From a virus (lineage: Duplodnaviria; Caudoviricetes), in the IMG/VR virus record IMGVR_UViG_3300046170_000133, positions 1 through 62,035 of that record: DNA of 62,035 nt, one strand, 5' to 3'. Position numbers and translations under genes: made by a program. Shown piece after piece: positions 2,426 through 62,035 of this stretch (position 1 is the first letter of the stretch; every line of letters starts with the position of its first letter). The notes below the pieces were generated by a model that worked only from the letters and a program-made list of their open reading frames with translations, had not been told where the DNA came from and made no database searches.

Positions 2426-2453
2426 ACTCTACGCTAATGGGAGTAGATTGCAA
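2426..2453 (-). promoter_or_regulatory. Putative sigma70 early promoter
   Basis: TTGCAA-N16-TAGAGT on minus strand, upstream of leader/HH2/ATPase. Confidence 0.45.
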
Positions 2454-2503
2454 GCACATTGCAGTCATTACATTAAGAAATAAAGACCAGTAAAATATTC
2501 CCT

Positions 2504-2992: not shown

Positions 2993-3400
2993 TCAAATTT
3001 CTTAGCTAAAGAAAACAAAGACCACCCCTTTTGATTTTATGATCTGGATATTCTAGACGACCCCCACCCCCGCTAGAGAAACAGATTACTTGTCTACCAT
3101 ATATACATAGTGATCCACACATTTGATGTGCAGTTTTCATGTACCCCCCCCCTTCTTCTTTTTATGCTTGCATTTTGTAATCGCATATTACCTGTAACTG
3201 TAGGATAAAGGGGTAGGAATCCTACACCCCCATATATTATTATAATTTTTATGTTGACTTTCCATGTGAAGGGGTACTATTATGGTAGAGTATTGGAATA
3301 GATATACCTACTATGTAGTAAATACCAGATAAGTAATTACCAATTGGTTATACAAGGTATTGATTTTAAAGGAGTATCTACATTTCAGTATGTACCTACT
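2993..3400. other. Non-coding terS-terL spacer, candidate pac region
   Basis: C-runs, inverted repeat GGGGTAGGAATCCTACACCCC, GTA/TAC-rich tract; the right genome end maps here (~3102). Confidence 0.5.
3254..3283 (+). promoter_or_regulatory. Putative sigma70 promoter for terL/late operon
   Basis: TTGACT-N18-TATTAT. Confidence 0.5.
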
Positions 3401-38155: not shown

Positions 38156-39244
38156 ATGTCTAATTTAATTAAAGCAGCAGAAGAACTAGAATATGTGCCA
38201 AAAGAAAATTTAATTCAAATGGCTCAAGCAGGCGACACTAGATTCCCGCCTTATTTAGTTTTAGCAGAAATACAACGTAGAACTCAAAATGAGAAAGCAT
38301 ATAGTGCAATGCAACCACCGCCTACTACTACAGTAGCAGAAGAAAAAGTTGCAGAGTTTGCACAGTCAGGTTTAGGAGGCATGGCTTCTCCACTTTTCTC
38401 TCCTCCCCCAGAGGATTTGCCCATGTCTCCACCTATGCAGATGGCAGCTAGCGGTGGCTTAACCGGTTATGCAAATCAAGGTAGAACTACTTATGACAGA
38501 ACCTTTGGGGAACAACTACGGGCTAATCCATATCTTAAAACTCCTGTAGCTATATTTGATCTTATGGATTATCAAGGAGCAGGCAGAAGAGCTGTTCAAC
38601 AAGAACGAGAACGAGACGAGTTGAAGAAATTAGCAGAAAAATTTGCTATAGAAGAAGAAGATTATGATGATAATTTATTAGACAATAACCCTTTTGTTTT
38701 TCAAGATGGTAGCGGAAAACCGCCTCCAGATACAACTCCAACAACAGATGTATTTGGTACGTTAGATGAACTTAAAAAACGTATGCAAGATGTTGAGTAT
38801 AAATCTCCAACTGCTGATGATTTAAGAAATGATAGAACTTCAGAAACTCTTATGTATTTAGGTTCTTTAATTGCAGGTTCAACTGATAGAAAACAATTCG
38901 GAGAGGGTTTAGCTGACTTAACTAGCAAAGTCGTAGCTAGCAAAAGAGCTGATGATAGATTCTTAAATGAAGCTAAATTAAAAGAAAGAGGCTTGTTTAG
39001 TTCTGACTTGCAATTAGCTACAGCTTTAGAAACCTTAAAAGTTAAAGCAGTACAAGCTAAAAATACTGCAGCTAAAAATAAAATTGACGAAGCTCTTGGT
39101 ATGATTCAAGCTGCAAATCTTGCCGATATGCAGACTAGAAAAAAATTACTTGATCAAGCAACAAAAATATTTTTAGGTTTAGGTGGTGAAAGTGCAACAA
39201 GTCAAGCTGATGTAGATGCTATTCTTGGTGGTGCTAAAAACTAA
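38156..39244 (+). CDS. Ejection protein
   Basis: PPYLVLAEIQRR, MAASGG; helical. Confidence 0.6.
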   Translation: MSNLIKAAEELEYVPKENLIQMAQAGDTRFPPYLVLAEIQRRTQNEKAYSAMQPPPTTTVAEEKVAEFAQSGLGGMASPLFSPPPEDLPMSPPMQMAASGGLTGYANQGRTTYDRTFGEQLRANPYLKTPVAIFDLMDYQGAGRRAVQQERERDELKKLAEKFAIEEEDYDDNLLDNNPFVFQDGSGKPPPDTTPTTDVFGTLDELKKRMQDVEYKSPTADDLRNDRTSETLMYLGSLIAGSTDRKQFGEGLADLTSKVVASKRADDRFLNEAKLKERGLFSSDLQLATALETLKVKAVQAKNTAAKNKIDEALGMIQAANLADMQTRKKLLDQATKIFLGLGGESATSQADVDAILGGAKN

Positions 39245-45200: not shown

Positions 45201-47358
45201 AGGACTAGCTTCAAGAGAACCTAACTATACTGAGATCAGAAAAAGATTATTAGAATTAGGCATAGACAAAGCAAAAACTGCAGACAATGAGACGCTAATA
45301 GAACTAGCCACAGAAAGAAATACAATTTTAAAAACTGCAGACAAGATAGAACTCAGACCAACTGCAGAAGTATGGAAAGATAATGCAGACTATTATCCTT
45401 TCTATCGTGTTATGGCAGATGAATCTATTCAAGGTCCAAACATAGGAGCTGGTTCTCTTGGTGGTAACCCTTTAAATCAAAAACTAAAAGGAAGCAAAGA
45501 AGCATTAGAAGCCTCGCCTTTGTCAGTTATATTTAAGAATCAATTGGCTATAGTCAATGCTGCTATGAAGAACGATGCTCATAGAAAGTTAGTTAGAAAC
45601 TATATTAAAACTAAAAGCAATGATCCAGACAATGAATATCGTGCAAAAGAAATAAGTTCTAAAGAAGCACAAGGTTCAGATGTCATACCTATTTATGTAA
45701 ACGGAGTTAAAAGATTCTTTAAAGTTGAAGACCCAGAAATGTTATATGGCTTAACAACTGCAGGAATTTTAAATGAAAATACTATAGTTAAGTTTTTATC
45801 TTTCCCAGCTACTGTGCTTCGAGAGACTGTCACCCGAGACCCCGGATTTATAGCAGTAAATATGTTGCGTGATACCTTGTCAGCCTTTGTTACAAGTGGT
45901 GCTAACTTTACTCCTGTAATAGGAACAGTAAAAGGTTTTGCCGAAGACATGGAAAACTTAGAACGCTTTGGTATTTTAGGTGGCTATGATTATTCAGCCG
46001 ATGCCTTGAGTGTAGAAAAATATGTCAAGCAACAATTCAGATTAGCAGGCAAGGATGATAGAGGAGCAATGAATCCTACTACTATGGCACTCAAGCTATG
46101 GGATTTCCTAGGTAAACAAACTTATAAGTCTGATGGTGCAACTAGACAAGCAGTTTACAAAGGAGTCTACGAACAAACAGGAGACGAAGTTGAAGCAGCT
46201 TTCCAAGCTGGAGAAATAATTAACTTCTCAAGACGAGGCAATGATCCACTAGCAAGAGTAATCTTCTCAGCTATTCCATTTTTAAATGCAAGAGTTCAAG
46301 GACTTGATGTCCTATACAGAAGTATGACTGGTAAATATTCTGCTAAATATCCCGGAGCGTCTGTCACCTCAAACAAGCAAATGCAGAATCAAATCATCAA
46401 AGGTTTTATAACCCGAGGTGGTTTCTTAACTTTATTAACGGCTCTTTACTACGCTTTAGTTAGTGACGATGACCAATACAAAGAACGTAGAAGAGAAGAA
46501 CGAGATGATCATTGGATGATCTTTAGAGAAAAAGGACAAGAACCTTTGAAACTACCAGTACCTTTCGAGGTCGGTCTCCTGTTTAAGACTATCCCAGAAA
46601 GAATTATGGATACAATTGTTGGTAGTTCGACTACTGACGACCTGACTAGCACCTTAAAAAGAGGAGCATCCAATACTTTACTAATTGACCCGCTAGGTTT
46701 TCAAGCGATCAAACCTTTTATGGAAGCTTTCATAGATAACAAGAGTGGCTTCACTGGTAGTCCAATAGTTCCTCAGTATATGGAAAGCGGTCTTGAACCC
46801 TTTCAACAAAGCAGAGAAACTACTAACGAACTAGCTAGACTGATTGGTCGTACCTTTAATATCTCGCCCATCAAACTTGAGTATGTAATGAATGGCTATG
46901 GCGGTACATTAGGTGGCTATGTTCTGAGCCTCATAGATGCCTCTCTAAGGCAAATTACTGGGGAAGATTACATAACCCCTAGAATAGATCAGTTGCCTCT
47001 CTTGAAGCGTTTTATGGCTTCTCCGATTGGTGGCGGGTTACAACAACAATTCTATGAACTCAGAGCCGAGAGCGATAAGGTGGTGGCTACCATAAACTCC
47101 CTCAGAGAAGACCCGAAACTCGAAGACTCTTTAATTACTTACATGCGTAACAACGATGGCTTGATTAGAACCAGACAACAAGTGCTAGCGTTGGACAGAT
47201 ATATGACCTATTGGCGAGACCGAAGAGATAGAACTTTGCGTGACGACACCCTGTCAGTTGAAGTCAAAAAAGATTTATTGCAAGAGTTGGAATTAGAAAG
47301 AAACTTGAGATTGATGTACTTACCTGAGTTGCGAGAAGAAGCCTACGCAACCCAGTAA
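39244..47358 (+). CDS. Large polyvalent ejection protein (zincin HExxH, HhH-glycosylase-like region, LPD38-like C-terminus)
   Basis: 2704 aa; DHETIH...EEYIAE; WY...IDIHM...QALLW; INFSRRG, IPFLNARVQG, PVPFEVG. Confidence 0.75.
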   Translation: MQRINLPDGRFVEVPDDITREQAIDLQNLLASEYPDNYSPYQPDIETSLGGDALEVVKGIPRGLASTFLSAGEGINNLFDSGNDNDLGVYLRDLQQALNESSIGPSEGYEDRFSSKLGQGLGSFASFMIPGTLAAKTAGLAGKAAKVSETLTKAGKSTDQINKAVRKVYRPQTYSTLALAMPVGIAEQGRNIREAEALGEDVSGGQELFAEILGAGIGASEIFAPQRLLRSIDKTTAARLRVPQRLVEALQTGGVEGLQEMTAGILQDVVSRGVYSDKLPIGDSALDDATVGGATGFIADLFLRGIAGRKSFGSQYEQEKEAQTGQQINEARNKNKKFYETVENDNDIENLQILTEEQAQPFVGPVNDNIIPEVNETKENIVEDELDKLPVLEDLIVETQQIANPTTREFDTIFNLVGSETGQIFGQFNDNETALQAKQKIAAGISADFVNRLADQTADITGFVNNGTIKALGRKLYHPNYNNINAKTIAMFDSRTSESRKAQVAEQKEIDATKAEIEKEIQAIQLAGAGSVSPQTLQKLERLEKKLQTLSVVDYKQGKQKLVKQKRKDLAPLDQVYERASKLGLDQKNNYTIKEAKKLLKPEDFNSLMSEKANIIYKTDEKTGAIKSIQQDADRIDVSRKALQDTLSSKRIKTRINSLEFEYIAETLVGEKNFNKMNRGQKELLITRLKGLPIMSDLATGSFDALQKLPDMKPREYTAQDVRAFYRGIKNEPSARAVTDKEIDFFFNLRDKQLNKKQRDQFKKDLVESGRAIKVGNRVRLNPDFEKVQAQRSTPFFETEAEYLARLNKSGLPQETIKEKVAVQLLENKNRLAIPEVDPNNAESQISEEAREELYKRIDERLVGYGISKDIRVRIVNGIRSSRKLGLTSSGQPYFKAKTKEEETAEMEFDQNLNDIFIFSEKISKDIDGTPEQREQVIDNVLANIDHETIHALIKLDLITEAEYQNLLEFAITKLGSMNVTINGKTMTELQRINQAYADLTNQDALNEEYIAEMFRLYRDNPKDFQSKPKTTIEKILNFFAGFVEAITGSVFRSPLRVLEDIRTGTIGARSRNTQRSLKNSRRIYGQALAIAETNQADEPINLEDQFDETVFDEPAQIRRGLGARDLLGESDLENDVLAAFRRTNGRITAKDFQDIFKRYSPRGTVPPFKDLKELQKDVQDALRIGVDANWYQRWSLQVPLVVGAVNVNEFSGVFGITSEQTTPEKNFQDALNTMITAREINPDTNRKKFIAKLSELNVGKRNKDRLNRIADLYKEGMFFKKGSGQKTLLYAQTIEQGASNRFVPFGVIDIHMLRKLGLIPAGKKLTAAPDISYQVGNAMLKALSSLDYVVNGQVTQIPDVSKIQALLWGHQRYTGSTKIHNQGSYQAAAAQSKTQIAKIKEMQRTGKWNTKASFNDKFLYGSRFVNNNNTFDTDTKHNFTNAILGAGTKVVNEFMPGRDRGYVPDTLIISQDIRNKFYFKTLNALSTGNQLNFLAELGIPHQITLSAGSWQGEWNPNLLLSMPMTGMPTQRAIAKLIMDATLQDSNLIIKPSAQGIAKTGIYLENADGRDFSEEQLTEILNTIDANVSQTGGTNFTVMPHKNVNGLTFIHPKSFEGELTKEDVDQFLQFFTENFPAQGYTISPYGQESEYYEYNAGGARGALQEIQSQDTALEPSDIQRAAIRTLYLPFQRVYEDFAEEVGFTARTEKAYELPDSAIQPLNGAIDKAEIDAIVEIDRQVRNTRPTAVPRFNNNASGFAKKIAIDFEQGNLDYLDIPTFKRSDTNVPPGSEKLFEDMKATTQEPKTFWENISENVEWTESVSRFLTRQRANYIFGYAAIEKNINKGAKTSANIAEEESRARTGAIQALLLSDKSKGVFGAMLNHGVPTLDKGVVSVTKDKRLSLINIFGPLINEMRETGVDLENTFKVYAIATRGVRLNEKGIEIPMTPEQIEEGLALGNSYPIVKETFELYQEQNAYVIDLLVDSGLASREPNYTEIRKRLLELGIDKAKTADNETLIELATERNTILKTADKIELRPTAEVWKDNADYYPFYRVMADESIQGPNIGAGSLGGNPLNQKLKGSKEALEASPLSVIFKNQLAIVNAAMKNDAHRKLVRNYIKTKSNDPDNEYRAKEISSKEAQGSDVIPIYVNGVKRFFKVEDPEMLYGLTTAGILNENTIVKFLSFPATVLRETVTRDPGFIAVNMLRDTLSAFVTSGANFTPVIGTVKGFAEDMENLERFGILGGYDYSADALSVEKYVKQQFRLAGKDDRGAMNPTTMALKLWDFLGKQTYKSDGATRQAVYKGVYEQTGDEVEAAFQAGEIINFSRRGNDPLARVIFSAIPFLNARVQGLDVLYRSMTGKYSAKYPGASVTSNKQMQNQIIKGFITRGGFLTLLTALYYALVSDDDQYKERRREERDDHWMIFREKGQEPLKLPVPFEVGLLFKTIPERIMDTIVGSSTTDDLTSTLKRGASNTLLIDPLGFQAIKPFMEAFIDNKSGFTGSPIVPQYMESGLEPFQQSRETTNELARLIGRTFNISPIKLEYVMNGYGGTLGGYVLSLIDASLRQITGEDYITPRIDQLPLLKRFMASPIGGGLQQQFYELRAESDKVVATINSLREDPKLEDSLITYMRNNDGLIRTRQQVLALDRYMTYWRDRRDRTLRDDTLSVEVKKDLLQELELERNLRLMYLPELREEAYATQ

Positions 47359-47416
47359 GAACCTGTGACTGGTAAATATTTTTAGAACCAGCGAGTTGGC
47401 TGGAAATTTTTCAGGT

Positions 47417-47761
47417 TTATAAACCGCTTGCTTCTAGCCTAGTAATTATCTTCTCTTCCTTCAATGGCTTGACCGAAAAGAAGTCTTTGTACTCAGGATG
47501 TTTCACATGAAACAATCTGGCATAGAAACAAATGTAATCGTTACTAATCTTAAACTCGCCACCTTGGGTTTCTACTTCAGCGTTCCATCTAATCCTATTG
47601 ATGATCGCCCATTGGCTATACTTCTTACGACCAGAGTTGATTGCTTGGAAGGTATACTCCTCAAACTTCTGCCAGACATGAGGGTTGGCTTTGTGCCATG
47701 TCCACCATTTCTCCTTGCGTTCTTGTAGTTCATCTTGCAGTTGCTCTTTCAACATACTCAT
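47417..47761 (-). CDS. Conserved phage protein
   Basis: WHKANPHVW...IRW...FKISNDY..FYARLF. Confidence 0.7.
   Translation of the reverse strand: MSMLKEQLQDELQERKEKWWTWHKANPHVWQKFEEYTFQAINSGRKKYSQWAIINRIRWNAEVETQGGEFKISNDYICFYARLFHVKHPEYKDFFSVKPLKEEKIITRLEASGL
47499..47514. promoter_or_regulatory. parS-like site
   Basis: TGTTTCACATGAAACA, 15/16 to consensus TGTTTCACGTGAAACA; intragenic. Confidence 0.4.
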
Positions 47762-47762
47762 A

Positions 47763-48182
47763 TCATTCCTCCATACCTAGGTTTTTTCTAATGTTAGTTA
47801 AAATCTTTTCGTTCAGGCTACCCCCATCTCTAAACTTTGTCGGTGGTTTTGACGCAGATAAAACCTGTGACTGGTAAATATTTCTTCCCGCAGCGAGATT
47901 TTCCTGAACTTGTTCTAGTAATTCTGCTTCTGTGCCATAAGCATCCTCGAATCTTTTTTTGTAGGGATGTCTGCTGATTGGCTCGATGTGACCGCCATAG
48001 CGATGGTGTGAAGGGCAAAGCGGAAGCACATATAGATGAGCATCCTTGACAGTCTTGCCTTTAGTGTGGTGAATTTCTGCGGGTACATCTGGGAAACCTC
48101 GATTCGCACAGACAATACAACCTAACTGTTGCACCTTGTCCATGTATTCCTTTTCTTCTTTGCTTGGGTTTCTTCCTTTCAT
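47763..48182 (-). CDS. Ref-like/HNH-family nuclease
   Basis: GCIVC...EIHH...LPLCPSHH...FEDAYGTEAELL. Confidence 0.75.
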   Translation of the reverse strand: MKGRNPSKEEKEYMDKVQQLGCIVCANRGFPDVPAEIHHTKGKTVKDAHLYVLPLCPSHHRYGGHIEPISRHPYKKRFEDAYGTEAELLEQVQENLAAGRNIYQSQVLSASKPPTKFRDGGSLNEKILTNIRKNLGMEE

Positions 48183-52087: not shown

Positions 52088-52852
52088 TTACCAGTTGAAG
52101 TGTTTTCTATCTGCATCTGTGCCAAAGTGAAAGATAGCTTTCAATAATCTAGCAACACCACCAGAGTAAGATACTTTTCTAGTACCATTCAAAAGATAAG
52201 TTTCTTTACAAAGATTAAAGACAGATACGTTTCCTTCTTTCCATCTGCATAACATTTGCTTGTGTGCTTCTTTACTTCCTTTCTGGAATCCACCCACAAC
52301 ATTCCTTTCAACAACAAGATTGCCTTTGATGTTGCTCCCAAGTAAACCTATTTCATGGTAGGTATAAGTAGAAGCAAATCTATAATCAACCTTCTCAATG
52401 ACCTCTTCTTTTTCCTTGGTCTCTTGAATGTTGTTAATAACCACAGTCTTCTTCTCTATTACTGGAGTCTCTTCTGGATTATCTAAGCCATGCACAAGGT
52501 TAGCTTCTGCATCTTTCATTGCTCTAGACAGAGCAGTTTCCCTTTCTGAGTTAGGAGTCCAAGGTACTTCTTTTACTATCTGAGTCTTACCATTTGGTAA
52601 CTCAAAATAAGAAACCATCTTGTGTTTCAATTGACCCGCCCAAATTTTCCAACCATTTTGTTTGGTCAGTTCTTGACCAGTAAATGTCTTGAGTTCGTTA
52701 GTAGCAAGGTTGCCTAGAATAACTACCTCGCTTTTTCCGAAGTCTTCAAACTGCTCTTCTTTAACATTAAGCACTTTGTAAACTCCACCTCTCCCTTGGG
52801 AGTCTGCTTCTTTTCTTCTTTGGAGAAGCGAACCACTTTTGTATAGTTTCAT
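52088..52852 (-). CDS. Hypothetical protein
   Basis: 254-aa ORF. Confidence 0.65.
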   Translation of the reverse strand: MKLYKSGSLLQRRKEADSQGRGGVYKVLNVKEEQFEDFGKSEVVILGNLATNELKTFTGQELTKQNGWKIWAGQLKHKMVSYFELPNGKTQIVKEVPWTPNSERETALSRAMKDAEANLVHGLDNPEETPVIEKKTVVINNIQETKEKEEVIEKVDYRFASTYTYHEIGLLGSNIKGNLVVERNVVGGFQKGSKEAHKQMLCRWKEGNVSVFNLCKETYLLNGTRKVSYSGGVARLLKAIFHFGTDADRKHFNW

Positions 52853-52876
52853 ATGTTAAGTTTTAGTTAAAATTTA

Positions 52877-53571: not shown

Positions 53572-55344
53572 ATGCAAAGTAAAGAAATCAGACACCACAT
53601 TGACAACCATCCGAAGACCTCTTCGTTGGCACTAGGTCAGTACAAAATCAAGTGTCCAAGTTGTTCAGACCAAAGGCGAAAGAACAAGAATGACACCCCA
53701 TTAAGCGTAAAGATAGAAGCAGATAAAATTATTTATCATTGCTTCCATTGTGAATTGAAAGGAATAATATCTAGAACACAAGGAGAGAGACCCATGAAGA
53801 TAGTACCTACAAAAGAATCAAAACAAAAACCTATAAAAGTAGCAGAAGAAAACTCAGACAAAGCTATCGAATGGCTAGCAGGCAGAGGTATATCATGGGA
53901 GGTTGCAGAAAAACATGGCGTTGTCGCCAAGGTGAACAAGAAACATTTACCAGTCATAGGTTTTACCTTCGCCTCAGAGAATGGCTCTGATTACGAAGCA
54001 GTCAAATGGCGTAGTGCCAATGGTAAGAAAGATTTCTGGTGGGATAATAATGCTAGCAAACTGTGGGGTAATTATCTTGAAGATGAAAAGAAAGAAACGA
54101 TTGAGGATACTGTTGTAATTACTGAAGGAGAGATGGATGCTTTGGCTATAGCTGAAGCCTTTAAAGATTACAACATCAGAGTTTATAGCGTTCCGAATGG
54201 CAGTCCGAATAAGATTTCAGAAGGAAAGGTAGACCCATCTGAGGATGGTAGATTCAAGTATGTTTGGAATGATAGGGAAAAGTTAGATGGTTTCAATAAG
54301 ATTATACTGGCAAGTGATTGTGATGAAGCGGGAGATTGTTTAGTCCATGAACTAAGCAGAAGACTAGGGAAAGAGAAATGCTATCGAGTAGATTATAAAG
54401 GTTACAAAGATGCTAACGAACTCTTACTCAATACTAACGCGATAGAAGTAAGGAAACAAATACTCAATGCTCAACCAATTCCTTTGCATGGATTGAATAG
54501 CATTGATCATTATCAAGACGAATGGCAATCTCTTTATGAGCAAGGAGAACCTAGCGGAATATCTACTGGAATTAAATCTCTTGATGACATTGTTACTTTG
54601 CAGACTGGTCAACTCTATGTGCTGACTGGGTATGCAGGTCATGGTAAGTCTGCTTTCTTAGATCAATTGGTAGTGAATGCGGGTAAGATGTATGGATGGA
54701 AAACTTGCTTTGCTTCTTTTGAGAAACCGCCAACCCTTCACGCAATACAACTTGCACAAATATTAACTGGTAAGAGTTTCTACAAACCACAATATGTGGG
54801 GTCGGAAAGGATGTCGCAACACGAGAAGGATGATGCCCAAGCATGGATTACTGAACACATTTTATTTCAAGACTATATGGATGGTGGTTTGCCTACGATC
54901 TCTGCGGTCTTAGAGAAGGCGAAGCACTCTATCCAGAGGAATGGCACAAGGATTGTTTGTATTGACCCCTTCAACTTTATCCATGCAGAGAAGACGTATG
55001 CCCTTGAAACCGATATGGTTAGTGAGATGCTAACCAAGGTTCAACTCTTTGCCAAGCAACACGATGTCTTAGTTATCTTTGTAGCACATCCAAGTAAACC
55101 TATGGACAAGTCAGGTAAAGTCGTACCGAATCTACTTGACGTTGCTAAATCTATGGCATGGTCAACTAAACCAGACGTAGGTTTGACTGTCCATCGAGGG
55201 GATGATGGGGTAGAAATTCATTGCACTAAAGCAAGATGGTATTGGAATGCACAACTAGGTCGTGTTATGCTGAATTATAATCCGAGTAATGGTAGGTATG
55301 AGGAGCATACGAAAAAAGAAGATGACTTCAATTGGGAGTTTTGA
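53572..55344 (+). CDS. Primase-helicase (T7 gp4/Twinkle-like)
   Basis: CPSC...CFHC zinc finger, ITEGEMDA and DCDEAG TOPRIM, TGYAGHGKS Walker A. Confidence 0.92.
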   Translation: MQSKEIRHHIDNHPKTSSLALGQYKIKCPSCSDQRRKNKNDTPLSVKIEADKIIYHCFHCELKGIISRTQGERPMKIVPTKESKQKPIKVAEENSDKAIEWLAGRGISWEVAEKHGVVAKVNKKHLPVIGFTFASENGSDYEAVKWRSANGKKDFWWDNNASKLWGNYLEDEKKETIEDTVVITEGEMDALAIAEAFKDYNIRVYSVPNGSPNKISEGKVDPSEDGRFKYVWNDREKLDGFNKIILASDCDEAGDCLVHELSRRLGKEKCYRVDYKGYKDANELLLNTNAIEVRKQILNAQPIPLHGLNSIDHYQDEWQSLYEQGEPSGISTGIKSLDDIVTLQTGQLYVLTGYAGHGKSAFLDQLVVNAGKMYGWKTCFASFEKPPTLHAIQLAQILTGKSFYKPQYVGSERMSQHEKDDAQAWITEHILFQDYMDGGLPTISAVLEKAKHSIQRNGTRIVCIDPFNFIHAEKTYALETDMVSEMLTKVQLFAKQHDVLVIFVAHPSKPMDKSGKVVPNLLDVAKSMAWSTKPDVGLTVHRGDDGVEIHCTKARWYWNAQLGRVMLNYNPSNGRYEEHTKKEDDFNWEF

Positions 55345-55843
55345 TGGTGTCACATTTGTAAATGACATTGGGAATCCTTATCTCCACGAAAGGCAAGACG
55401 TACATATAAGAAACGTAGACAATTCTAAGGTTGGCAGAGCAATAGTCTTTGACCAACACATCATTGATAAACTCTATACCAAAGATAAGCTTGACGAAAA
55501 GCAACATAATGTTTGTGATAAATACTTATCAGTCATAGCTCGAAGCGGTGCTTTCGCCAAAGCTCCCAGCTCCATGGAGAAAATATTTGACCAGTCACAG
55601 GTTTCTGCTGATGGTTCTCGTGCCTGCATTTTATCGCAAGTTCATCGAATAATTATTAGGGAATGTGGAAGGGATTCAGAGAAGGTGTTCTGGAAAGTTA
55701 TGACTGTCAATCCTAAAGAGATTGATCAGCCACAACTTGATTCGGTAGTAGCTTGTGCGAATGCCTTGCTACAGTATTGGTATGTTAATCAGCAGAGTCC
55801 GATTTCTTTATTTCAGAAAGCTTTTGTAGACCACTCTCAGTAG
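55298..55843 (+). CDS. Hypothetical protein
   Basis: Overlaps helicase end. Confidence 0.6.
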   Translation: MRSIRKKKMTSIGSFDGVTFVNDIGNPYLHERQDVHIRNVDNSKVGRAIVFDQHIIDKLYTKDKLDEKQHNVCDKYLSVIARSGAFAKAPSSMEKIFDQSQVSADGSRACILSQVHRIIIRECGRDSEKVFWKVMTVNPKEIDQPQLDSVVACANALLQYWYVNQQSPISLFQKAFVDHSQ

Positions 55844-56123
55844 GTTCGTCATAGTCATGGTTCTCAAATTCTTCTTTGGTCATACCCATCTCTATTGATC
55901 TACCTTGATTGCCCGCAAAGTAATCTTCGTTGTCTGATGTTATCGCTTGATACTTGTCAGGCTGTTCTACAATAGGTTCGCTTTTTATTTCGTGAAGGTT
56001 TGCATACTGATGTATCATTTGTATTAATTGTTTATTTAAAGAGCGACCTTCTTTCTTAGCTATGGCATGTGCCATTTCATAAGTCTCTTGATCACATCTT
56101 ACATAAAGATTTTTCTCTGTCAT
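55785..56123 (-). CDS. Arc-like ribbon-helix-helix regulator
   Basis: NLYVRCDQETYEMAHAIAKKEGRSLNKQLIQMI; GGAG RBS. Confidence 0.75.
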   Translation of the reverse strand: MTEKNLYVRCDQETYEMAHAIAKKEGRSLNKQLIQMIHQYANLHEIKSEPIVEQPDKYQAITSDNEDYFAGNQGRSIEMGMTKEEFENHDYDEPTESGLQKLSEIKKSDSAD

Positions 56124-56137
56124 ATATTGTCTCCAAT

Positions 56138-56470
56138 TTAATTTGTTAAGTGAATTTTAGGTTTGAGAAACTCGTCATCGTCTTGCAAATCTAATGCTTC
56201 AGCATCGCCTACTTCAGCCATAGCAATAGTTTCTTTGCCAATCGCATAGTAATTATTTTCAAGCAGAGACTCGGATGCTAACTTTAAAAAGTCTTCGTTG
56301 TTCTGTAGTAGCGGGTCTTTCCTTACCACATACATAGCCAGAATGAAGGCACTCTCGTGATCAGCAACTGTCCAAACCTTATGCACCCAACGACCCACAC
56401 TTTTCTGAGAAGACTTTACCTTTGGTTCAGGTATGTCTAATTCAAAAGTGTGATGGATAACTGCGTACAT
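56138..56470 (-). CDS. Hypothetical protein, probably leaderless
   Basis: Extended -10 TGCTATAAT (56485-56477) ends 6 nt before ATG; no SD. Confidence 0.6.
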   Translation of the reverse strand: MYAVIHHTFELDIPEPKVKSSQKSVGRWVHKVWTVADHESAFILAMYVVRKDPLLQNNEDFLKLASESLLENNYYAIGKETIAMAEVGDAEALDLQDDDEFLKPKIHLTN

Positions 56471-56562
56471 CTAAACATTATAGCATCTTGAAGGTATTAT
56501 GAAAGCTTTAGGCGGGCATCAACTTAAACCAATCGAAACGTCTAGGCACAAGTCAATGCCCT

Positions 56563-56603
56563 AAAAAAAGAGGAAGGCATGACTAAATAATCGCCTTCCT
56601 CTT
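56563..56603 (-). terminator. Rho-independent terminator of the sRNA
   Basis: AAGAGGAAGGC...GCCTTCCTC + T7 on minus strand. Confidence 0.8.
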
Positions 56604-56648
56604 AATCTTTTAACTAAAACTCTATGACATGGAGGTCATTGAAGTAAT
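56563..56648 (-). ncRNA. Predicted trans-acting antisense sRNA
   Basis: Own promoter and terminator, no ORF; GACCUCCAUGUCAUAGAGUUUUAGUUAAAAGA is complementary to RBS regions at 811-837, 2035-2062 and 52859-52872. Confidence 0.7.
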
Positions 56649-56654
56649 ACAAAC

Positions 56655-56713
56655 ATTGTACTTTATTCACAAGTTATCCACAACTATAAATTTCTATCAA
56701 CAGGATATCCACA
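56655..56713 (-). promoter_or_regulatory. sigma70 promoter overlapped by DnaA boxes
   Basis: TTGTGG-N17-TACAAT (56683-56655); boxes TTATTCACA 56663, TTATCCACA 56674, CTATCAACA 56694, ATATCCACA 56705, all co-oriented. Confidence 0.7.
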
Positions 56714-56895
56714 GGCAAACCTGTAACCAGTAAATATTTTTGTAACCTATCACCAACCAGTCACCACGCATGTGTAATTGGAATACGCATCAAAAGGAAA
56801 AGTTCATGGTCTGTGACTCGCATAGAATATATAACCAGTAAATATTTTATTTTACTAGCCACTTTTTTCACAAGCAGATGCAAAAAATTTAGACC

Positions 56896-56941
56896 AAAAA
56901 AAAAGCGAAAGCCTAACCATTTCTGGATAGACCTTCGCTTT
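56896..56941 (-). terminator. Rho-independent terminator ending the ATPase/VWA operon
   Basis: AAAGCGAAGGTCTA...TAGGCTTTCGC + T9 on minus strand. Confidence 0.8.
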
Positions 56942-56958
56942 AATTTTATCTAAGTGAA

Positions 56959-57195
56959 CTAATAGTCGTGTGTATCTTCTGCCCAAGACTCATACATATC
57001 TTCTTCATACATATCGTATTTAGGATTAGTAAAAATCTCAGGTCGATAACTAGCTTTGACTTTATTAACACATTTCTCACAGACTGTTCCACAAGAAATA
57101 CCTTTTGCATCAACCAACTCATAAACGTCATTGCCTACATGATATAAGCTTCCGCATTCTAAGATTGGTTCATCTGTATCTGGATAATACTTCAT
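56959..57195 (-). CDS. Small Cys-containing hypothetical protein
   Basis: DAKGISCGTVCEKC...YRPEIF; AGGAG RBS. Confidence 0.65.
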   Translation of the reverse strand: MKYYPDTDEPILECGSLYHVGNDVYELVDAKGISCGTVCEKCVNKVKASYRPEIFTNPKYDMYEEDMYESWAEDTHDY

Positions 57196-57305
57196 ACTTT
57201 TCTCCTATTTATTATGAATTTATTAAAATTTGACCTCCATACGTGGCTTCTAAGGGCAAAACTAAGAGGGGTTGAGGGGTAAGTAACCCCCCAAATAGAC
57301 CCCTC

Positions 57306-58778: not shown

Positions 58779-59721
58779 CTTTACCACCTCCGAAAACATT
58801 AGACATAAGGTTCTTGTTCAACTTGCTCTTGGAATCTTCCGCACTAGCAAGAACTTGCTTACGTTTAGACTCTCCCAACTCAGTTTTATCTCGAAGAGTA
58901 TCAACTGAATTAATGCTACCGAGCAATTGGTCAACCGAATCAATAGACTCCGCTAACTCTTCAGATTGAAAGACCTGATCATTCAGAACTCTCGCTCTGT
59001 CATTATCAACTTTCAACTTATCGAACATCGCATCTTTGAAAAATGCTCCGCCTTTATCTTTCGGCTTGAAGTTTTTCATCGCATCAATGACTCGCCCTAA
59101 AGAAGAATCTAAATTCTCCTTGGCATCATCCAACAAGAGTTTCTCGTTTTGACGATAGCTACCTTCAACTTGTGAAGCGATTTGTTTTCGCAACTTAGCT
59201 GAAGCAGTAGTACGAATATCAGACTCAACTGAAGGAATGTTTCTGAAGTTAACATCAAAAACAAACTTTCGTGCTATCTCCCATTGCTCCAAATAGTCTT
59301 CCGATTTCCAAGCATTGCCCAAAGTATCTTTAGCACCTTCGACATAAGTCTCGTAGCTACCGATAAAATGATTGACCTCTCTATCCCACTCCAACTGAAA
59401 CTTATTAATAGCTTGTTGAACTTGTTCATAGTGAGTATTAGGTAACAGATAATAAACTGATTTATTACTGTCTCCTTCTTGCCATGGGTAAACATAAGGC
59501 TTGATCTCTCTGTTCATAAACTTGTTGAACATTTTTCTCATATGAGAATTGATGTCAAAAGAATATAACTTCTTATCAACCTTGATGCTTCTATCATCAG
59601 CAGAATACATACCAGTAACCTCATCGCTGATCTCACGATCAACTTTGATACCGCTAGGTATTTGCTTATGTATGTGAATTAAAGTCGCAACTTCTTGCAA
59701 CACCGATTTTTTGTTATCCAT
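58771..59721 (-). CDS. DUF3150-like protein between ATPase and VWA genes
   Basis: YVYPW...YLLP...DY....IARKF; GGAGG RBS; typical triad position. Confidence 0.7.
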   Translation of the reverse strand: MDNKKSVLQEVATLIHIHKQIPSGIKVDREISDEVTGMYSADDRSIKVDKKLYSFDINSHMRKMFNKFMNREIKPYVYPWQEGDSNKSVYYLLPNTHYEQVQQAINKFQLEWDREVNHFIGSYETYVEGAKDTLGNAWKSEDYLEQWEIARKFVFDVNFRNIPSVESDIRTTASAKLRKQIASQVEGSYRQNEKLLLDDAKENLDSSLGRVIDAMKNFKPKDKGGAFFKDAMFDKLKVDNDRARVLNDQVFQSEELAESIDSVDQLLGSINSVDTLRDKTELGESKRKQVLASAEDSKSKLNKNLMSNVFGGGKDV

Positions 59722-59750
59722 AGTAACCTCCATAGATAATTAGTTAAAAG

Positions 59751-59808
59751 AACTGATTTCGATTCTTTTGAATCATCATCAGGCAGACCACACAGTCCAC
59801 GATCAGTT
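59751..59808 (-). ncRNA. Hammerhead HH1, second copy
   Basis: Identical to 837-894. Confidence 0.92.
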
Positions 59809-59866
59809 AGAACACAGAGCAGAGAAAATATTACTGGTAACATTTTCTCCACTCCAGTCCCTTGGA

Positions 59867-60948
59867 TTAGATCAATAAGTCTTGATGTCTAACCACAAAG
59901 TCAGAATAAACCTTAGTCTGTTTCAACTGAGATTTTATTCCCACCATAGTACGAACAAAGAAGATAGCAAACTCATCAGTCTGAAATTGCTCTACAAATT
60001 TTAGAGCGTTCTCAAAATGAATCGCTAACTCTGAGTCCTTCGATTCCTTAATGGTAGAAGTCAAAGGCAACCGCAGTAGCGTATTGCAGACCCACACCTT
60101 CGGGAACATCCACCTTCTTGCCACCCAACACCTTTTCAAGATTTGGAACATCTTGCATCAAGGTTATGAAAGCCATGAACTCCGCAGTAAATTCTCGACC
60201 TACAAACCATAGATCAAGTTTCTGAAGATTTCCTTGTCAGGCTTCTTGTGCTAGCACCTTAGACAAATTAGTGATTGTCCTAGGAGTCGCACTCGGCTCA
60301 ACAATTTTGGGGTCAAAATTATTAAGGTACTGTGGCTGATACTGAATGAAAGCGATCAAGCGTTCATCAACACCTATTTTCACTTGCCCACTTTAGCCAG
60401 TCGTTAGCGTTGCTCTCGAACTCGATTAATCCCGACACGACCCATCCCATGTGCCACAATTTTGTTTGCACTTGATCTGTCGCTGTGACGATTTCCCGCA
60501 AGAACTATTGTCCACCCATCAGGCAAGACATAGTCTCCAAGTCTTCGTTCCTTAATCAACTGCGAAGCAATTGCTTGAAGGTCTTGACCCGCTTGAGCGA
60601 ACTCATCTAAGAACAGCAGACCTTTACCTTTAGTCGGTAAATTTCCGAGCATTGCTCTCTTCTGAACTCCATCAAGAATATAAGGAAGTCCGCCAAAGTT
60701 CTACAGATTCAAAATGACTCAGCCTAAAATCGACCACACCAAATAGTTTTGCAGTCGGGGAAGCATTATCCAACTAACTGTAAGACCTTCCTTTTCAGCA
60801 AGACTTTCCGCAAATGATAAATCGTTTCTGATTTACCAACACCCACCGAACCAAGAAACTAAAGGAACTGTTCTGACTCTTTCATTATGTGAAGCATCTC
60901 CATAGTCCTGGACTAGGCGATGACCCATATACATTTTGTTCAATCCAT
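59867..60948 (-). CDS. MoxR-like AAA+ ATPase, second allelic copy, broken by probable sequencing indels
   Basis: Homologous to 953-2029 with synonymous/conservative changes plus single-base indels. Confidence 0.75.
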
Positions 60949-60981
60949 AATTTTTCTCCATCATAGATTAATAGTTAAAAG

Positions 60982-61036
60982 ACTGTTTTCGGAACTTTTG
61001 TTCCATCATCAGAGCAAGCACACACTTGCTGACAGT
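60982..61036 (-). ncRNA. Hammerhead HH2, second copy
   Basis: As 2062-2115 with one extra base in the GAAA homopolymer. Confidence 0.85.
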
Positions 61037-61437
61037 TTTGCATCCCACCATTGTGAGACTGTCCCCCTCTATTCTTTAGTATTTGAGGAGCAGAACTTTA
61101 TTCTTGTTCTGGGAACTTGGTGTATCGTTTACCGCCCTATCATGCATCTTGTCTTCCTAACGATTGTCACTCTCGCTTTGCATGGTCTCTGGGGTACGAC
61201 CTAGGCTACTGTCACTTATCCCTAGGAATTTGTCAGAGTCGTATTGTGCTGTTCTATAAAACCTCCACGTTAAAATATAACTGGTAAGAAATTAACCAAA
61301 CCAAGAAGACCGACACGCTGTCGGGGTTTGTTGATCTGCTGTTTCTGTCCATGAGATTAACTCTACGCTAATGGGAGTAGATTGCAAGCACATTGCAGTC
61401 ATTACATTAAGAAATAAAGACCAGTAAAATATTCCCT

Positions 61438-61926
61438 ATGACTGACGAGAAAAAACCAAACCTAAAAATAGTTAAAGACCGCCCCGAAATTTTGACCCCG
61501 AAACAAAGACATTTTGTAGAACTCATAGTAAAGGGAAAGGTAACTTATAAAGAGGCATATGCAGAGGCTTACAATGTCACTCTAACGAAGTCAGGGAAGA
61601 TACCTAAATGGGTAGAGACAGAGTCATCTAAACTGCTAGCAAACCCTAAGATAGCACTAAGCGTTCAGAGGCTCATAAGTAAACGAGAGGATGGTTCAGT
61701 AGCTTCTGGCATACGAACGAAGAACTATGTTCTTGAAAGGCTCATGGCAGAGTCTAGGGATGCTGATTCAGATGCTAGCAGAGTCAGGGCATTAGAATTA
61801 CTGGGTAAGACCATTGGAATATTCACAGACGTTGTGGAACAAAGAGAAGAGAGAGCAAGCGAAACGATAGCTGAAGAGATAGAAGAGAAGATCATCCGAC
61901 TACTAGAAGAATCACAAAACGACTAA
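61438..61926 (+). CDS. terS: Terminase small subunit, second copy
   Basis: Same protein as 2504-2992, several synonymous differences. Confidence 0.88.
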   Translation: MTDEKKPNLKIVKDRPEILTPKQRHFVELIVKGKVTYKEAYAEAYNVTLTKSGKIPKWVETESSKLLANPKIALSVQRLISKREDGSVASGIRTKNYVLERLMAESRDADSDASRVRALELLGKTIGIFTDVVEQREERASETIAEEIEEKIIRLLEESQND

Positions 61927-62035
61927 TCAAATTTCTTAGCTAAAGAAAACAAAGACCACCCCTTTTGATTTTATGATCTGGATATTCTAGACGACCCCAC
62001 CCCCCTTAGACAAAGAGGTTACATGCCTAACATAT

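What the first reader, a model, noticed from the sequence alone, without database searches (positions are those of the whole stretch)
56563..56713. DnaA-box-controlled sRNA antisense to the RBSs of the hammerhead-led early genes
Seen: a minus-strand unit with promoter TTGTGG-N17-TACAAT, no ORF and a strong terminator gives a ~86-nt RNA. Its 5' half GACCUCCAUGUCAUAGAGUUUUAGUUAAAAGA pairs with the leader after HH1 (UCUUUUAACUAA..UCU-AUGGAGGU: 12+3+8 bp, covering the SD). It also pairs with the leader after HH2 (UCUUUUAACUA..UCUAUGA-UGGAG: 11+7+5 bp). Further matches: 14 nt just upstream of the 52852 start codon (52859-52872) and 10 nt at 57231-57240. Two consensus DnaA boxes cover the -35 and spacer, with two degenerate boxes upstream. 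Known: DnaA represses promoters it overlaps. Inference: with active DnaA the sRNA is off and early genes are translated; in non-replicating hosts it silences several early genes. This would be a host-state-sensing lysis/dormancy switch. I know of no description of this sRNA-plus-ribozyme circuit.
Basis: partly seen in the sequence, partly recalled or inferred. Interest (0 to 1): 0.92.

Follow-up and report, generated by a model that had tools for sequence, protein, structure and literature searches.

The report
Phage small RNA antisense to leaders
An uncultured marine phage carries a conserved gene for a roughly 80-base RNA that mirrors the ribosome-binding leaders of several of its own genes, and its promoter sits under binding sites for the host replication initiator DnaA, which suggests an untested link between host replication state and phage protein synthesis.

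Summary
On the minus strand, 56563-56648 is a self-contained unit: a promoter (TTGTGG-17-TACAAT), no conserved ORF and a strong terminator. Two TTATNCACA DnaA boxes lie over the -35 hexamer and the spacer.

Nine metagenomic relatives keep the unit. Its 5' half is 45/46 identical in relatives whose neighbouring third codon positions are only 73-78% identical. The DnaA boxes vary only at the free N. One relative has a terminator of unrelated sequence that still forms a hairpin plus T-run.

In a scan of the whole window, the two leaders that follow hammerhead-like elements are the best non-self pairing sites (about -30 kcal/mol). More distant clades have equivalent RNAs, and the bases flanking the anti-SD and the second pairing block change together with their own leaders.

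Best reading: a trans-acting antisense RNA that occludes the ribosome-binding sites of several phage genes, made from a DnaA-responsive promoter.

Not shown: the transcript itself, repression, DnaA binding and its sign, and any dormancy switch. The host is unknown. Rfam recognises neither the sRNA nor the ribozyme-like elements.

I rate it a new variant of a known kind (phage antisense RNAs such as P1 c4).

The parts
56563..56648 (-). Predicted ~86-nt sRNA (77 nt in most relatives)
   Evidence: Sequence. Fold z-score -5.25. Conserved in 9 relatives. The 5' half is 45/46 identical where neighbouring third codon positions are 73-78% identical.
56624..56639 (-). 5' hairpin AUGAC/GUCAU that presents CUCCAU in its loop. 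The anti-SD ACCUCCAU lies at 56629-56636.
   Evidence: MFE and centroid structures. Consensus structure with one compensatory U-A to A-U change and two C-G to U.G changes.
56606..56617 (-). Unpaired second pairing block UUAGUUAAAAGA
   Evidence: Unpaired in the predicted fold. GUUUUAGUUAAAAG is invariant in 10 of 10 clade-A sequences. It pairs with UCUUUUAACUAA of the leaders.
56568..56603 (-). Intrinsic terminator: 11-bp stem followed by a U-run reaching 56563
   Evidence: The relative L091/L002 has a stem of different sequence but still a hairpin plus T-run.
56655..56683 (-). Sigma-70-type promoter TTGTGG-N17-TACAAT
   Evidence: The -10 is TATAAT in 8 of 10 aligned sequences and TACAAT in 2, always with a 17-nt spacer. 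It is not listed by the consensus scan because the -35 matches only 3/6.
56663..56682 (-). Tandem DnaA boxes TGTGGATAA-CT-TGTGAATAA over the -35 and spacer
   Evidence: In 10 aligned sequences they vary only at the N of TTATNCACA. In L085, L086, L088 and L090 every consensus box of the locus lies in this region.
56694..56713 (-). Upstream pair of weaker DnaA boxes (TGTGGATAT, TGTTGATAG)
   Evidence: The first is a perfect TGTGGATAA in 7 of 10 relatives. L090 has two full tandem pairs.
59716..59752 (-). Target 1: leader, SD and start of the 320-aa gene, after hammerhead-like element HH1. A duplicate copy lies at 802-838.
   Evidence: Predicted duplex of 29 bp, -30.3 kcal/mol. Joint top non-self hit of the window scan.
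60938..60985 (-). Target 2: leader and SD of the MoxR-type ATPase gene, after HH2. The cleaner copy lies at 2035-2065.
   Evidence: -30.6 and -30.1 kcal/mol, 25-31 bp.
52849..52873 (-). Possible target 3: the start region of the 254-aa gene, with a 14-nt perfect complement of the unpaired block
   Evidence: -18.0 kcal/mol. A similar 13-nt match stands upstream of the homologue in L002.
47757..47808 (-). Possible target 4: leader of the 114-aa gene (AUUUUAACUAAC ... UAUGGAGGAA)
   Evidence: -24.1 kcal/mol.
59753..59810 (-). Hammerhead-like element HH1 (type III layout; predicted cut after C59801)
   Evidence: No Rfam hit.
60986..61040 (-). Hammerhead-like element HH2 (left copy 2066-2119)
   Evidence: No Rfam hit.
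56138..56500 (-). Next unit downstream: an extended -10 promoter TGCTATAAT with ATG 6 nt later (leaderless 110-aa gene)
   Evidence: Conserved in L001/L002. This shows the sRNA is not the 5' UTR of that gene.

Best explanation
The unit is a phage gene for a small regulatory RNA.

- Synthesis (inferred): host RNA polymerase makes an RNA of about 77-86 nt from a sigma-70-type promoter and stops at an intrinsic terminator.
- Pairing surfaces (predicted): the RNA offers two. One is an anti-Shine-Dalgarno sequence, ACCUCCAU, in the loop of a short 5' hairpin. The other is an unpaired A/U-rich block, UUAGUUAAAAGA.
- Targets (predicted): together these are the reverse complement of the leader module UCUUUUAACUAA...AUGGAGGU. 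That module follows the hammerhead-like elements in front of at least two phage genes (the MoxR-type ATPase and the 320-aa gene). Weaker versions precede two or three others.
- Action (inferred): pairing covers the SD and the upstream leader, so it most likely blocks 30S binding and turns these genes down together.
- Control (inferred): the promoter lies under two tandem consensus DnaA boxes, with two more upstream. Host DnaA probably binds there and, in this clade, hinders transcription.

The RNA would then rise when free DnaA falls. That could happen in non-growing hosts, or, as I think equally likely, when replicating phage DNA multiplies the boxes and the sRNA gene. The second case would give a replication-coupled shut-off of these genes.

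Shown here: the sequence features, their conservation and the co-variation. Inferred: transcription, pairing in vivo, repression and DnaA binding.
For: 1. Gene-like unit.
- Promoter, hairpin, unpaired block and terminator are all present.
- No ORF is conserved on either strand (and reading).

2. Purifying selection.
- The 5' half is 45/46 identical in L089 and L092, where third codon positions of the adjacent gene are 73% and 78% identical.
- It is 40/46 identical in L090 (third positions 77%) and 37/46 in L091 (neighbouring protein 61% identical).

3. Structure kept through sequence change.
- The terminator stem of L091 is unrelated in sequence but is still a hairpin plus T-run.
- The 5' hairpin has one compensatory pair and two G.U-compatible changes.

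4. Targets.
- The two leaders are the best non-self sites among 12,398 windows.
- A control kept ACCUCCAU fixed and shuffled the rest, scoring 168 SD+start sites. The real second-best site (-28.9) was reached by 0 of 100 shuffles. The real best non-self site (-30.1) compares with a shuffle mean of -24.7 (sd 2.0) and an extreme of -30.2.
- In L002 the two best non-self sites are again hammerhead-led leaders, with 14-nt perfect matches.

5. Wider family and co-variation.
- By an automatic detector, 19 of 29 distinct loci with the neighbouring 110-aa gene carry an anti-SD plus terminator unit upstream. Two more were seen by eye.
- The own-clade sRNA pairs best with 19 of 34 leaders, against about 7 expected. 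The mean advantage is 5.4 kcal/mol.
- Clade A/D sRNAs read gaCCUCCau against leaders auGGAGGu. Clade B sRNAs read uauCCUCCaau against leaders auuGGAGGau. That gives 3.1-4.0 or 3.5-5.3 extra flanking pairs for matching clades, against 0.7-1.4 for crossed ones.
- The second block changes from AAA/UUU to GAU/AUC.

6. DnaA boxes.
- They vary only at the N of TTATNCACA in 10 sequences.
- All consensus boxes of L085 (2/2), L086 (3/3), L088 (3/3) and L090 (4/4) lie in this region.
- Clades D (L114, L120) and L101 also have boxes next to the sRNA promoter.

7. Precedent (literature).
- Phage antisense RNAs that block ribosome-binding sites (c4, sar) are described in passages of PMC12197685.
- DnaA acting as a repressor by keeping RNA polymerase off a promoter is described in passages of PMC8203912.
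Against: - The -35 is weak (3/6) and the consensus scan does not call the promoter.
- The leaders beat the best unrelated coding window by only about 2 kcal/mol (-30.3 against -28.7). One of 100 shuffles reached the top score.
- Own-clade preference is absent in clade C (0/2), weak in F (1/3) and partial in B (3/10). The clades are few, so the co-variation rests on perhaps two to four independent events.
- Ten of 29 loci scored negative in the automatic detector. Eight of these (the L007-type lineage) show no unit at this place, yet their leaders keep the motif.
- Three relatives weaken the anti-SD to UUUCC.
- DnaA boxes are missing from the promoter in clade B and are placed differently in clades D and L101.
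- The host, and therefore its DnaA-box preference, is unknown.
- Complementarity could be kept up by repeated copying between an inverted duplicate and the leaders.
Confidence: 0.5

Rival explanations
1. The sRNA is an antisense regulator as above, but the DnaA boxes serve a DNA-level purpose. That purpose could be a replication origin, or anchoring of phage DNA to membrane-bound DnaA during entry. Another possibility is that a phage protein binds them. In each case the overlap with the promoter is secondary.
For: - T5-like phages carry conserved pairs of DnaA boxes in a non-coding region, for which an injection-stop role has been proposed (passages of preprint 10.1101/866236).
- The region lies beside the primase/helicase and recombination genes.
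- It also holds other repeats and palindromes: AAATATTTACTGG, and CACAACATCTTGTG in relatives.
- The geometry of the boxes relative to the -35 is not conserved between clades.
Against: - In clade A the boxes occupy the -35 and spacer in all 10 sequences, so any occupancy must affect transcription.
- Boxes stay close to the sRNA promoter in three clades.
- I saw no AT-rich unwinding element or DnaA-trio-like repeats beside the boxes (reading; not formally tested).
Confidence: 0.2
2. The short transcript serves replication rather than regulation, as an origin-activating or priming RNA at a DnaA-box origin. Its likeness to the leaders would then be a relic of an inverted duplication.
For: - A DnaA-box cluster and a promoter lie next to the replication genes.
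- Transcription is known to activate some phage origins (passages on lambda in PMC8203912; abstract of PMC3017604 in the listing).
Against: - A strong terminator ends the RNA after about 80 nt in every relative.
- The most conserved part is exactly the leader-complementary part.
- That part co-varies with the leaders across clades, which a priming role does not explain.
Confidence: 0.08
3. The RNA acts on the host rather than on phage leaders. Either it mimics the 16S rRNA 3' end and soaks up host SD sequences, or it targets particular host mRNAs.
For: - ACCUCC is the core of the 16S anti-SD (established knowledge).
- Two relatives carry two anti-SD copies in one RNA (L098, L107), as sponges often do.
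- Phage sRNAs that regulate host genes are known (abstract of 10.1101/2024.10.31.621285).
Against: - The flanks of the anti-SD and the second block match the phage's own leaders and change with them.
- ATGGAGGT occurs only 5 times in the window, and 4 of those are the sRNA gene itself, the HH1 leader (counted twice because of the end duplication) and a leader-like site at 57233-57240.
- The host genome is unknown, so host targets could not be examined.
Confidence: 0.07
4. The unit has no function as an RNA. It is an inverted duplicate of a leader next to a terminator that only insulates the upstream operon from the 110-aa gene.
For: - It lies between two transcription units.
- The leader module is a repeated, recombining element in these phages.
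Against: - The upstream operon already has its own terminator at about 56895-56935.
- Sequence conservation exceeds that of synonymous sites.
- A promoter with a perfect or near-perfect -10 and a fixed 17-nt spacer is kept in 10 of 10 sequences.
- There is co-variation across clades.
Confidence: 0.05

Closest known systems
c4 antisense RNA of phages P1/P7 (immI region; Rfam 'C4' family, family name recalled)
   Same: A phage-encoded RNA of about 77 nt whose exposed sequences are complementary to sites around a ribosome-binding site of the phage's own mRNA and block translation (passages of review PMC12197685).
   Different: From my recall of the P1 literature, c4 is cut out of the same transcript that it controls, acts on one operon (icd-ant) and belongs to temperate phage-plasmids. 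Here the RNA has its own promoter and terminator, lies 3-4 kb from its best targets and matches several leaders. No Rfam family, C4 included, was reported for the region.
sar RNA of P22 and OOP RNA of lambda
   Same: Short phage antisense RNAs that repress a phage gene after transcription. sar acts at the ant translation start (PMC12197685).
   Different: Both are transcribed from the strand opposite their target and so are fully complementary (recalled). Here the target and the sRNA lie on the same strand at different loci, with two-block partial complementarity.
T4 RegA (recalled; no call)
   Same: One factor that turns down translation of many early phage mRNAs by occupying their initiation regions.
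   Different: RegA is a protein. The likeness is functional only.
DnaA-repressed promoters (dnaA, nrdAB)
   Same: Consensus 9-mers TTATNCACA at a promoter. High DnaA occupancy keeps RNA polymerase off (passages of PMC8203912).
   Different: Those promoters drive host protein genes. That review has 0 occurrences of 'sRNA', 'small RNA' or 'phage' as word starts. The phage-sRNA review PMC12197685 has 0 occurrences of 'DnaA'.
Paired DnaA boxes in the first-step-transfer region of T5-like phages
   Same: Conserved pairs of closely spaced DnaA boxes in a non-coding phage region (preprint 10.1101/866236).
   Different: In T5 they are proposed to stop DNA injection, are spaced 3 bp apart inside inverted repeats and are not linked to an sRNA promoter. 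Here the spacing is 2 bp and the boxes cover a -35 and spacer.
Hammerhead ribozymes flanking genes in prophages
   Same: Several hammerheads in a row in front of single genes or short gene blocks, proposed to cut long phage transcripts into gene-length mRNAs (passages of PMC3088659).
   Different: That work describes no antisense RNA against the leaders. The elements here mostly carry an extra base, or whole hairpins, between the CUGANGA core and stem II, and no Rfam hammerhead model reports them.

Membership tests
Any curated RNA family (Rfam 15), including C4 antisense RNA | Score at or above the family's gathering threshold | tested here: not met
   There were 0 matches at gathering thresholds over the whole window. 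At E<=10 the region gives only a chance-level BTnc231 hit (21.5 bits against 80). The L088 homologue gives STnc390 at 29.9 bits against 50 and FopS at 27.3 against 56, mostly through the terminator.
Trans-acting base-pairing sRNA (enterobacterial Hfq-type layout) | Own promoter and an intrinsic terminator with a U-tail | tested here: met
Trans-acting base-pairing sRNA (enterobacterial Hfq-type layout) | A conserved, unpaired seed complementary to the translation-initiation regions of several mRNAs encoded elsewhere | tested here: met
   This is computational only.
Trans-acting base-pairing sRNA (enterobacterial Hfq-type layout) | A detectable transcript, dependence on a chaperone, and a regulatory effect | not testable with these tools
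   The public RNA runs held only assembled contigs, which cannot show a small RNA's ends or strand.
DnaA box / DnaA-regulated promoter | 9-mer matching TT(A/T)TNCACA | tested here: met
   Two boxes at 56663-56682. Relatives have 2 to 4.
DnaA box / DnaA-regulated promoter | Clustering and conservation beyond chance, with variation confined to the degenerate position | tested here: met
   Genome-wide frequency is at the chance level, so the signal is local clustering.
DnaA box / DnaA-regulated promoter | Binding of DnaA and a change in promoter activity | not testable with these tools
   The host is unknown.
Hammerhead ribozyme, type III (the elements in front of the targets) | Core CUGANGA ... 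GAAA, three helices, and an NUH triplet at the cut site | tested here: met
   Of 69 distinct elements from the window and loci, 61 can form all three helices, using 36, 19 and 21 distinct stem sequences. An N-U-H triplet is present in 67 of 69.
Hammerhead ribozyme, type III (the elements in front of the targets) | Recognition by the Rfam hammerhead covariance models | tested here: not met
   No hammerhead family is reported for these elements even at E<=10. The only hammerhead hit is a different element in L007 (RAGATH-1 hammerhead, 27 bits against 56.3).
Hammerhead ribozyme, type III (the elements in front of the targets) | Self-cleavage | not testable with these tools
   Contigs cannot show RNA ends.

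The most novel reading that the evidence does not exclude
A lineage of uncultured marine phages runs a three-part RNA circuit. Self-cleaving ribozymes give a set of genes a common processed leader. One 'master anti-leader' sRNA can silence all of those leaders at once. The host replication initiator DnaA gates that sRNA. The phage would thus read DnaA availability, meaning host growth state or its own genome copy number, to time or suspend expression of these genes.
Probability: 0.3. Interest if true: 0.85.

Novelty: new variant of a known kind. Interest (0 to 1): 0.72.

Why it matters
Phage-encoded small RNAs are known mainly from a few temperate coliphages, and most of those act on one neighbouring gene or on host genes. 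This one is a conserved, computationally well-supported example in abundant but uncultured marine phages. One RNA appears aimed at a shared leader module of several of the phage's own genes.

Its promoter sits under DnaA boxes. That would be, to my knowledge and within the two reviews I searched, the first small RNA placed under the replication initiator.

If confirmed, it would give a simple molecular route by which a phage couples its gene expression to host replication status or to its own replication. It would also give a reason why ribozyme-processed leaders are kept uniform. The pieces are short and portable, so every step can be tested in E. coli with reporters.

Tried and rejected
**Transcript evidence.** The look-up of sequencing runs returned 6 runs from 4 studies, each holding only 0.05-0.11 of the sampled words. 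I laid four of them. All are assembled contigs. Pieces cover parts of the region, for example 55803-56467 and 59693-59843, but nothing was laid on about 56470-56690. Contigs cannot show a small RNA, its ends or its strand, so this says nothing either way.

**Rfam.** There were no matches at gathering thresholds, and only chance-level matches at E<=10.

**Close phage records.** blastn of 55700-57300 against 50,697 phage records found nothing. The primase/helicase protein finds at best 31.5% identity, so no cultured relative or host is available.

**Bacterial genomes.** 43 loci encode relatives of the metallopeptidase/VWA protein, none of them close (best segments 25-42% identity). This gives no host and no sign of a prophage.

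**Exact-pattern scan of viral contigs for the sRNA core.** Three stretches matched. Two are the contigs already held as L001 and L002. The third is a chance match inside a coding region.

**First shuffle test.** It used the longest ORF for each stop codon to define start regions. That put the 320-aa gene's start inside its own SD and lost the frameshifted ATPase copy, so I discard the result. One search replaces it.

**Leaders dropped.** Three regex-picked 'leaders' were dropped as in-gene false hits: L010 at 1081, L098 at 2236 and L011 at 2061. L120 yielded no leader.

**Hammerhead alignment.** I did not run a formal covariation count on the MAFFT alignment of 49 elements, because the two sub-types are out of register. 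A direct parse replaced it.

**A gene on the plus strand behind the GGAGG at 56632.** Rejected. The 34-aa frame is not kept in L002 or in clade B.

**The sRNA as 5' UTR or attenuator of the 110-aa gene.** Rejected. That gene has its own conserved promoter between the terminator and its ATG.

**Supplements.** The supplementary files of the papers were not opened. The supplementary figures of PMC3088659 that show hammerhead variants may bear on whether the extra base after A9 has been seen before.
Full report
**What the window is.** The window is a complete-looking viral record of 62,035 bases. Its first ~3,120 bases repeat 58915-62035 with small differences, so each 'target' near the ends is seen twice.
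- Genes from about 61400 down to 47417 run mostly on the minus strand.
- They encode a MoxR-type ATPase, a 320-aa protein, a metallopeptidase/VWA protein, a primase/helicase, a Sak-like annealing protein, an exonuclease and an SSB-like protein.
- No cultured phage is close; the best primase identity is 31.5%.
- No bacterial genome holds a close relative. The host is therefore unknown.

**The observation.** Between the terminator of the upstream operon (about 56895-56935) and the promoter of a leaderless 110-aa gene (TGCTATAAT, with ATG 6 nt later at 56470) lies a unit with no conserved ORF.

On the minus strand it reads as follows:
- TTGTGG at 56683-56678.
- 17 nt of spacer.
- TACAAT at 56660-56655.
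- An 86-nt stretch ending in an 11-bp GC-rich hairpin and seven U.

The predicted RNA folds much better than shuffles (-25.4 kcal/mol, z = -5.25, 0 of 200). The fold has three parts:
- A 5-bp hairpin with CUCCAU in the loop.
- About 11 unpaired bases.
- The terminator.

TGTGGATAA (56682-56674) and TGTGAATAA (56671-56663) both fit TTATNCACA and cover the -35 and spacer. TGTGGATAT and TGTTGATAG lie upstream.

- The -35 matches the consensus at only 3 of 6 positions, and the consensus scan does not list this promoter.
- DnaA-like 9-mers are not enriched in the genome as a whole (18 against 18.6 expected). What is unusual is that the only perfect box and two near-perfect ones sit within 50 bases.

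**More than chance.**
- The 11-mer TCTTTTAACTA with up to one mismatch occurs 14 times against 4.9 expected (0 of 100 shuffles).
- A duplex-energy scan of 12,398 windows on both strands puts the HH2 leader (-30.6) and the HH1 leader (-30.3) first after the gene's own antisense strand. The background is -11.6 (sd 3.7), and the best unrelated site is a coding window at -28.7.
- Any CCUCC-bearing RNA will stick to SDs. I therefore kept ACCUCCAU fixed, shuffled the remaining bases and scored 168 SD-plus-start sites.
  - The real second-best site (-28.9) was reached by 0 of 100 shuffles.
  - The real best non-self site (-30.1) compares with a shuffle mean of -24.7 (sd 2.0) and a most extreme value of -30.2.
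- An earlier version of this test was invalid and is set aside.
- The two leaders are homologous to each other. The real statement is therefore that the sRNA contains an inverted copy of the leader module.

**Close relatives (clade A).** Scans with the neighbouring metallopeptidase/VWA protein found two viral contigs at 74-75% amino-acid identity and nine metagenome contigs at 75-96%. One of the nine (L091) is the same stretch as a viral contig (L002). All nine metagenome contigs hold the unit.

In the 10-row alignment:
- The -10 is TATAAT in 8 and TACAAT in 2, with the spacer fixed.
- The box over the -35 is TGTGGATAA in 9 and TGTGAATAA in 1.
- The second box is TGTG(G/A/T)ATAA, with G in 6, A in 2 and T in 2.
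- The upstream box is perfect in 7.
- The boxes therefore vary only where the DnaA consensus is degenerate.

In L085, L086, L088 and L090 every consensus box of the locus (2, 3, 3 and 4) lies in this region.

The 5' half of the RNA is 45/46 identical in L089 and L092, where third codon positions of the adjacent gene are 73% and 78% identical. It is 37/46 identical in L091, where the neighbouring protein is 61% identical.

L091's terminator has an unrelated stem sequence but is again a hairpin plus T-run. The small 5' hairpin shows one U-A to A-U exchange and two C-G to U.G changes.

Three relatives read UUUCC instead of CCUCC. Both changes are C-to-U, so they keep wobble pairing with GGAGG but weaken it.

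In L002 the sRNA's two best non-self sites in the 13.5-kb locus are again leaders behind hammerhead-like elements, each with a 14-nt perfect match.

**A wider family, and co-variation.** More distant relatives (neighbouring proteins about 40% identical) carry an equivalent unit upstream of the homologue of the 110-aa gene. It has a promoter, an anti-SD and a terminator.
- My automatic detector finds it in 19 of 29 distinct loci that have at least 450 nt of upstream sequence.
- Two more (L098, L017) were seen by eye.
- Eight loci, the L007-type lineage, show none at that place.

I grouped 16 genomes into clades A, B, C, D and F and paired each sRNA with 34 leaders that follow hammerhead-like elements. 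Three false leaders were dropped first.
- The own-clade sRNA is the best partner for 19 of 34 leaders: A 12/16, B 3/10, C 0/2, D 3/3, F 1/3.
- The mean advantage is 5.4 kcal/mol.

The clearest signal is at single bases.
- Clades A, D and F read gaCCUCCau, and the leaders of clades A and D mostly read auGGAGGu.
- Clade B reads uauCCUCCaau, and its leaders read auuGGAGGau.
- The number of extra contiguous pairs flanking the SD/anti-SD is 3.1-4.0 for A/D sRNAs on A/D leaders, and 3.5-5.3 for B sRNAs on B/C leaders.
- For the crossed combinations it is 0.7-1.4.
- The second block changes in step: leader UUU-UAACU with sRNA AGUUA-AAA in clade A, and leader AUC-UAAC with sRNA GUUA-GAU in clades B and D.

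These flanks are not dictated by 16S rRNA pairing. ATGGAGGT is also not a general feature of the window's start sites: there are 5 occurrences, and 4 of them are the sRNA gene, the HH1 leader counted twice and a leader-like relic.

The weakness is that there are few independent lineages. Repeated copying between the inverted module and the leaders could mimic selection for pairing.

**What the targets are.** Each leader follows an element with this layout: a 5' strand of stem III, an N-U-H triplet, a closed stem I with a (A/G)UGUG(U/A) loop, CUGANGA, a short closed stem II with an AAAA/GAAA loop, GAAA, and the 3' strand of stem III.
- Among 69 distinct elements in the window and the loci, 61 can form all three helices, with 36, 19 and 21 different stem sequences. 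67 have the N-U-H triplet.
- That is the type III hammerhead architecture. Rows of hammerheads in front of phage genes have been described (passages of PMC3088659).
- Even so, no Rfam hammerhead model reports these elements at E<=10.
- Most copies have an extra base, or even extra hairpins, between the core and stem II.
- I therefore call them hammerhead-like. Cleavage is untested.

**How it most likely works.**
- The RNA has the layout of a trans-acting base-pairing sRNA: its own promoter, a loop-exposed anti-SD, an unpaired A/U-rich second seed directly upstream of a terminator with a U-tail, and several partly complementary targets at translation starts.
- The predicted duplexes cover the SD and the 20-30 bases upstream. 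They are 29 bp for the HH1 leader and 25-31 bp for the HH2 leader. Weaker ones reach the starts of the 114-aa and 254-aa genes.
- Occlusion of the ribosome-binding site is therefore the expected outcome, as for P1 c4 and P22 sar (PMC12197685).
- Transcription, pairing and repression are all inferred.

**The DnaA link.**
- The boxes look real because of their consensus, their tandem spacing, variation only at N, and recurrence next to the sRNA promoter in clades A, D and L101.
- In clade A they overlap the -35 and spacer, which for DnaA normally means repression (PMC8203912).
- In clades D and L101 they lie just upstream of the -35. In clade B other palindromes take their place. The sign and generality of control are therefore open.
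- High-affinity consensus boxes bind both nucleotide forms of DnaA (established knowledge), so the promoter would read DnaA availability rather than its ATP state.
A replication-coupled timer fits equally well and needs no lysogeny-like state, for which I found no evidence. In that reading, phage DNA copies multiply both the boxes and the sRNA gene, free DnaA drops, the sRNA rises and these genes shut off.
- A DNA-level role of the boxes is a serious rival for that part. Candidates are an origin, or membrane anchoring as proposed for the paired boxes of T5-like phages (10.1101/866236).

**Novelty.**
- Phage antisense RNAs against ribosome-binding sites are a known kind.
- What differs here is a free-standing sRNA aimed at a shared, ribozyme-associated leader module of several genes, DnaA boxes on its promoter, and an uncultured marine phage lineage as its home.
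- The phage-sRNA review I searched has no occurrence of 'DnaA'. The review of DnaA as a transcription factor has none of 'sRNA', 'small RNA' or 'phage'. My full-text searches turned up no description of such a circuit. These searches cover only the open-access library.
Both notes are unchecked.

**Verdict.** The sRNA gene is very likely real, antisense control of the leaders is likely, and DnaA control is plausible but untested.

Noticed in passing
window 1-3120 and 58915-62035: The two ends of the record are copies of one region, but not identical. Patches are 74-94% alike, and single-base indels in the right copy break the ATPase frame (only 82 aa stay open at 60404-60652). This looks like an assembly overlap of two strain variants rather than a true terminal repeat.
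   Followed up: partly
window 2060-2119 (= 60980-61040) compared with L085 3310-3369 and 3767-3826: The window's HH2 element combines the stem III/I half of one element of relative L085 with the stem II and leader half of the next one, and the small gene between them is missing (also in L090). The ribozyme-like modules seem to act as recombination joints.
   Followed up: partly
window 56717-56741 and 56826-56848, 47350-47395, 47852-47897, 53938-53971, 55580-55610; loci L003-L021 upstream of the 320-aa gene: A semi-palindromic motif AAATATT(T)ACTGGT recurs, always co-oriented with the local genes in the window. In relatives it sits in the loop of a GC-clamped hairpin just upstream of the hammerhead-like elements. 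It may be a phage-specific promoter or operator.
   Followed up: no
window 56470-56500 (minus strand): The 110-aa gene downstream of the sRNA has an extended -10 (TGCTATAAT) with its ATG 6 nt later, so its mRNA is probably leaderless. The next gene (55785-56123) has a weak Arc-like repressor match (phrog_228, E = 6.6e-4).
   Followed up: partly
window 56959-57305; loci L086, L088, L089, L091, L092, L093: The 78-aa cysteine-rich gene (56959-57195) is replaced in six relatives by another hammerhead-led gene whose leader has an 11-14-nt match to the sRNA. The window keeps only a relic, AUGGAGGUCA, at 57231-57240. One RNA-run contig joins 56960 to 57191, skipping 230 bases.
   Followed up: partly
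L098 4149-4200 and L107 3668-3720: In two distant relatives the sRNA carries two tandem copies of the anti-SD module (GUUAUCCUCC...).
   Followed up: no
L003, L004, L010, L011, L094, L098, L107 upstream of the sRNA promoter; L003-L011 upstream of the 110-aa gene: Conserved palindromes CACAACATCTTGTG and TGTTCCACATGGAACA flank the sRNA unit in the distant clades. They look like operators of an unknown phage regulator.
   Followed up: no
L086 2174-2227, L086 4787-4843, L091 3736-3795: Some hammerhead-like elements have one or two extra hairpins inserted between CUGAUGA and the conserved stem II hairpin. This is unusual for hammerheads and may explain why Rfam misses them.
   Followed up: no
window 39244-47358 (+): A 2,704-aa protein matches only PHROG families of unknown function over its last ~650 residues (phrog_9854, phrog_18222). 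Its role is unknown.
   Followed up: no
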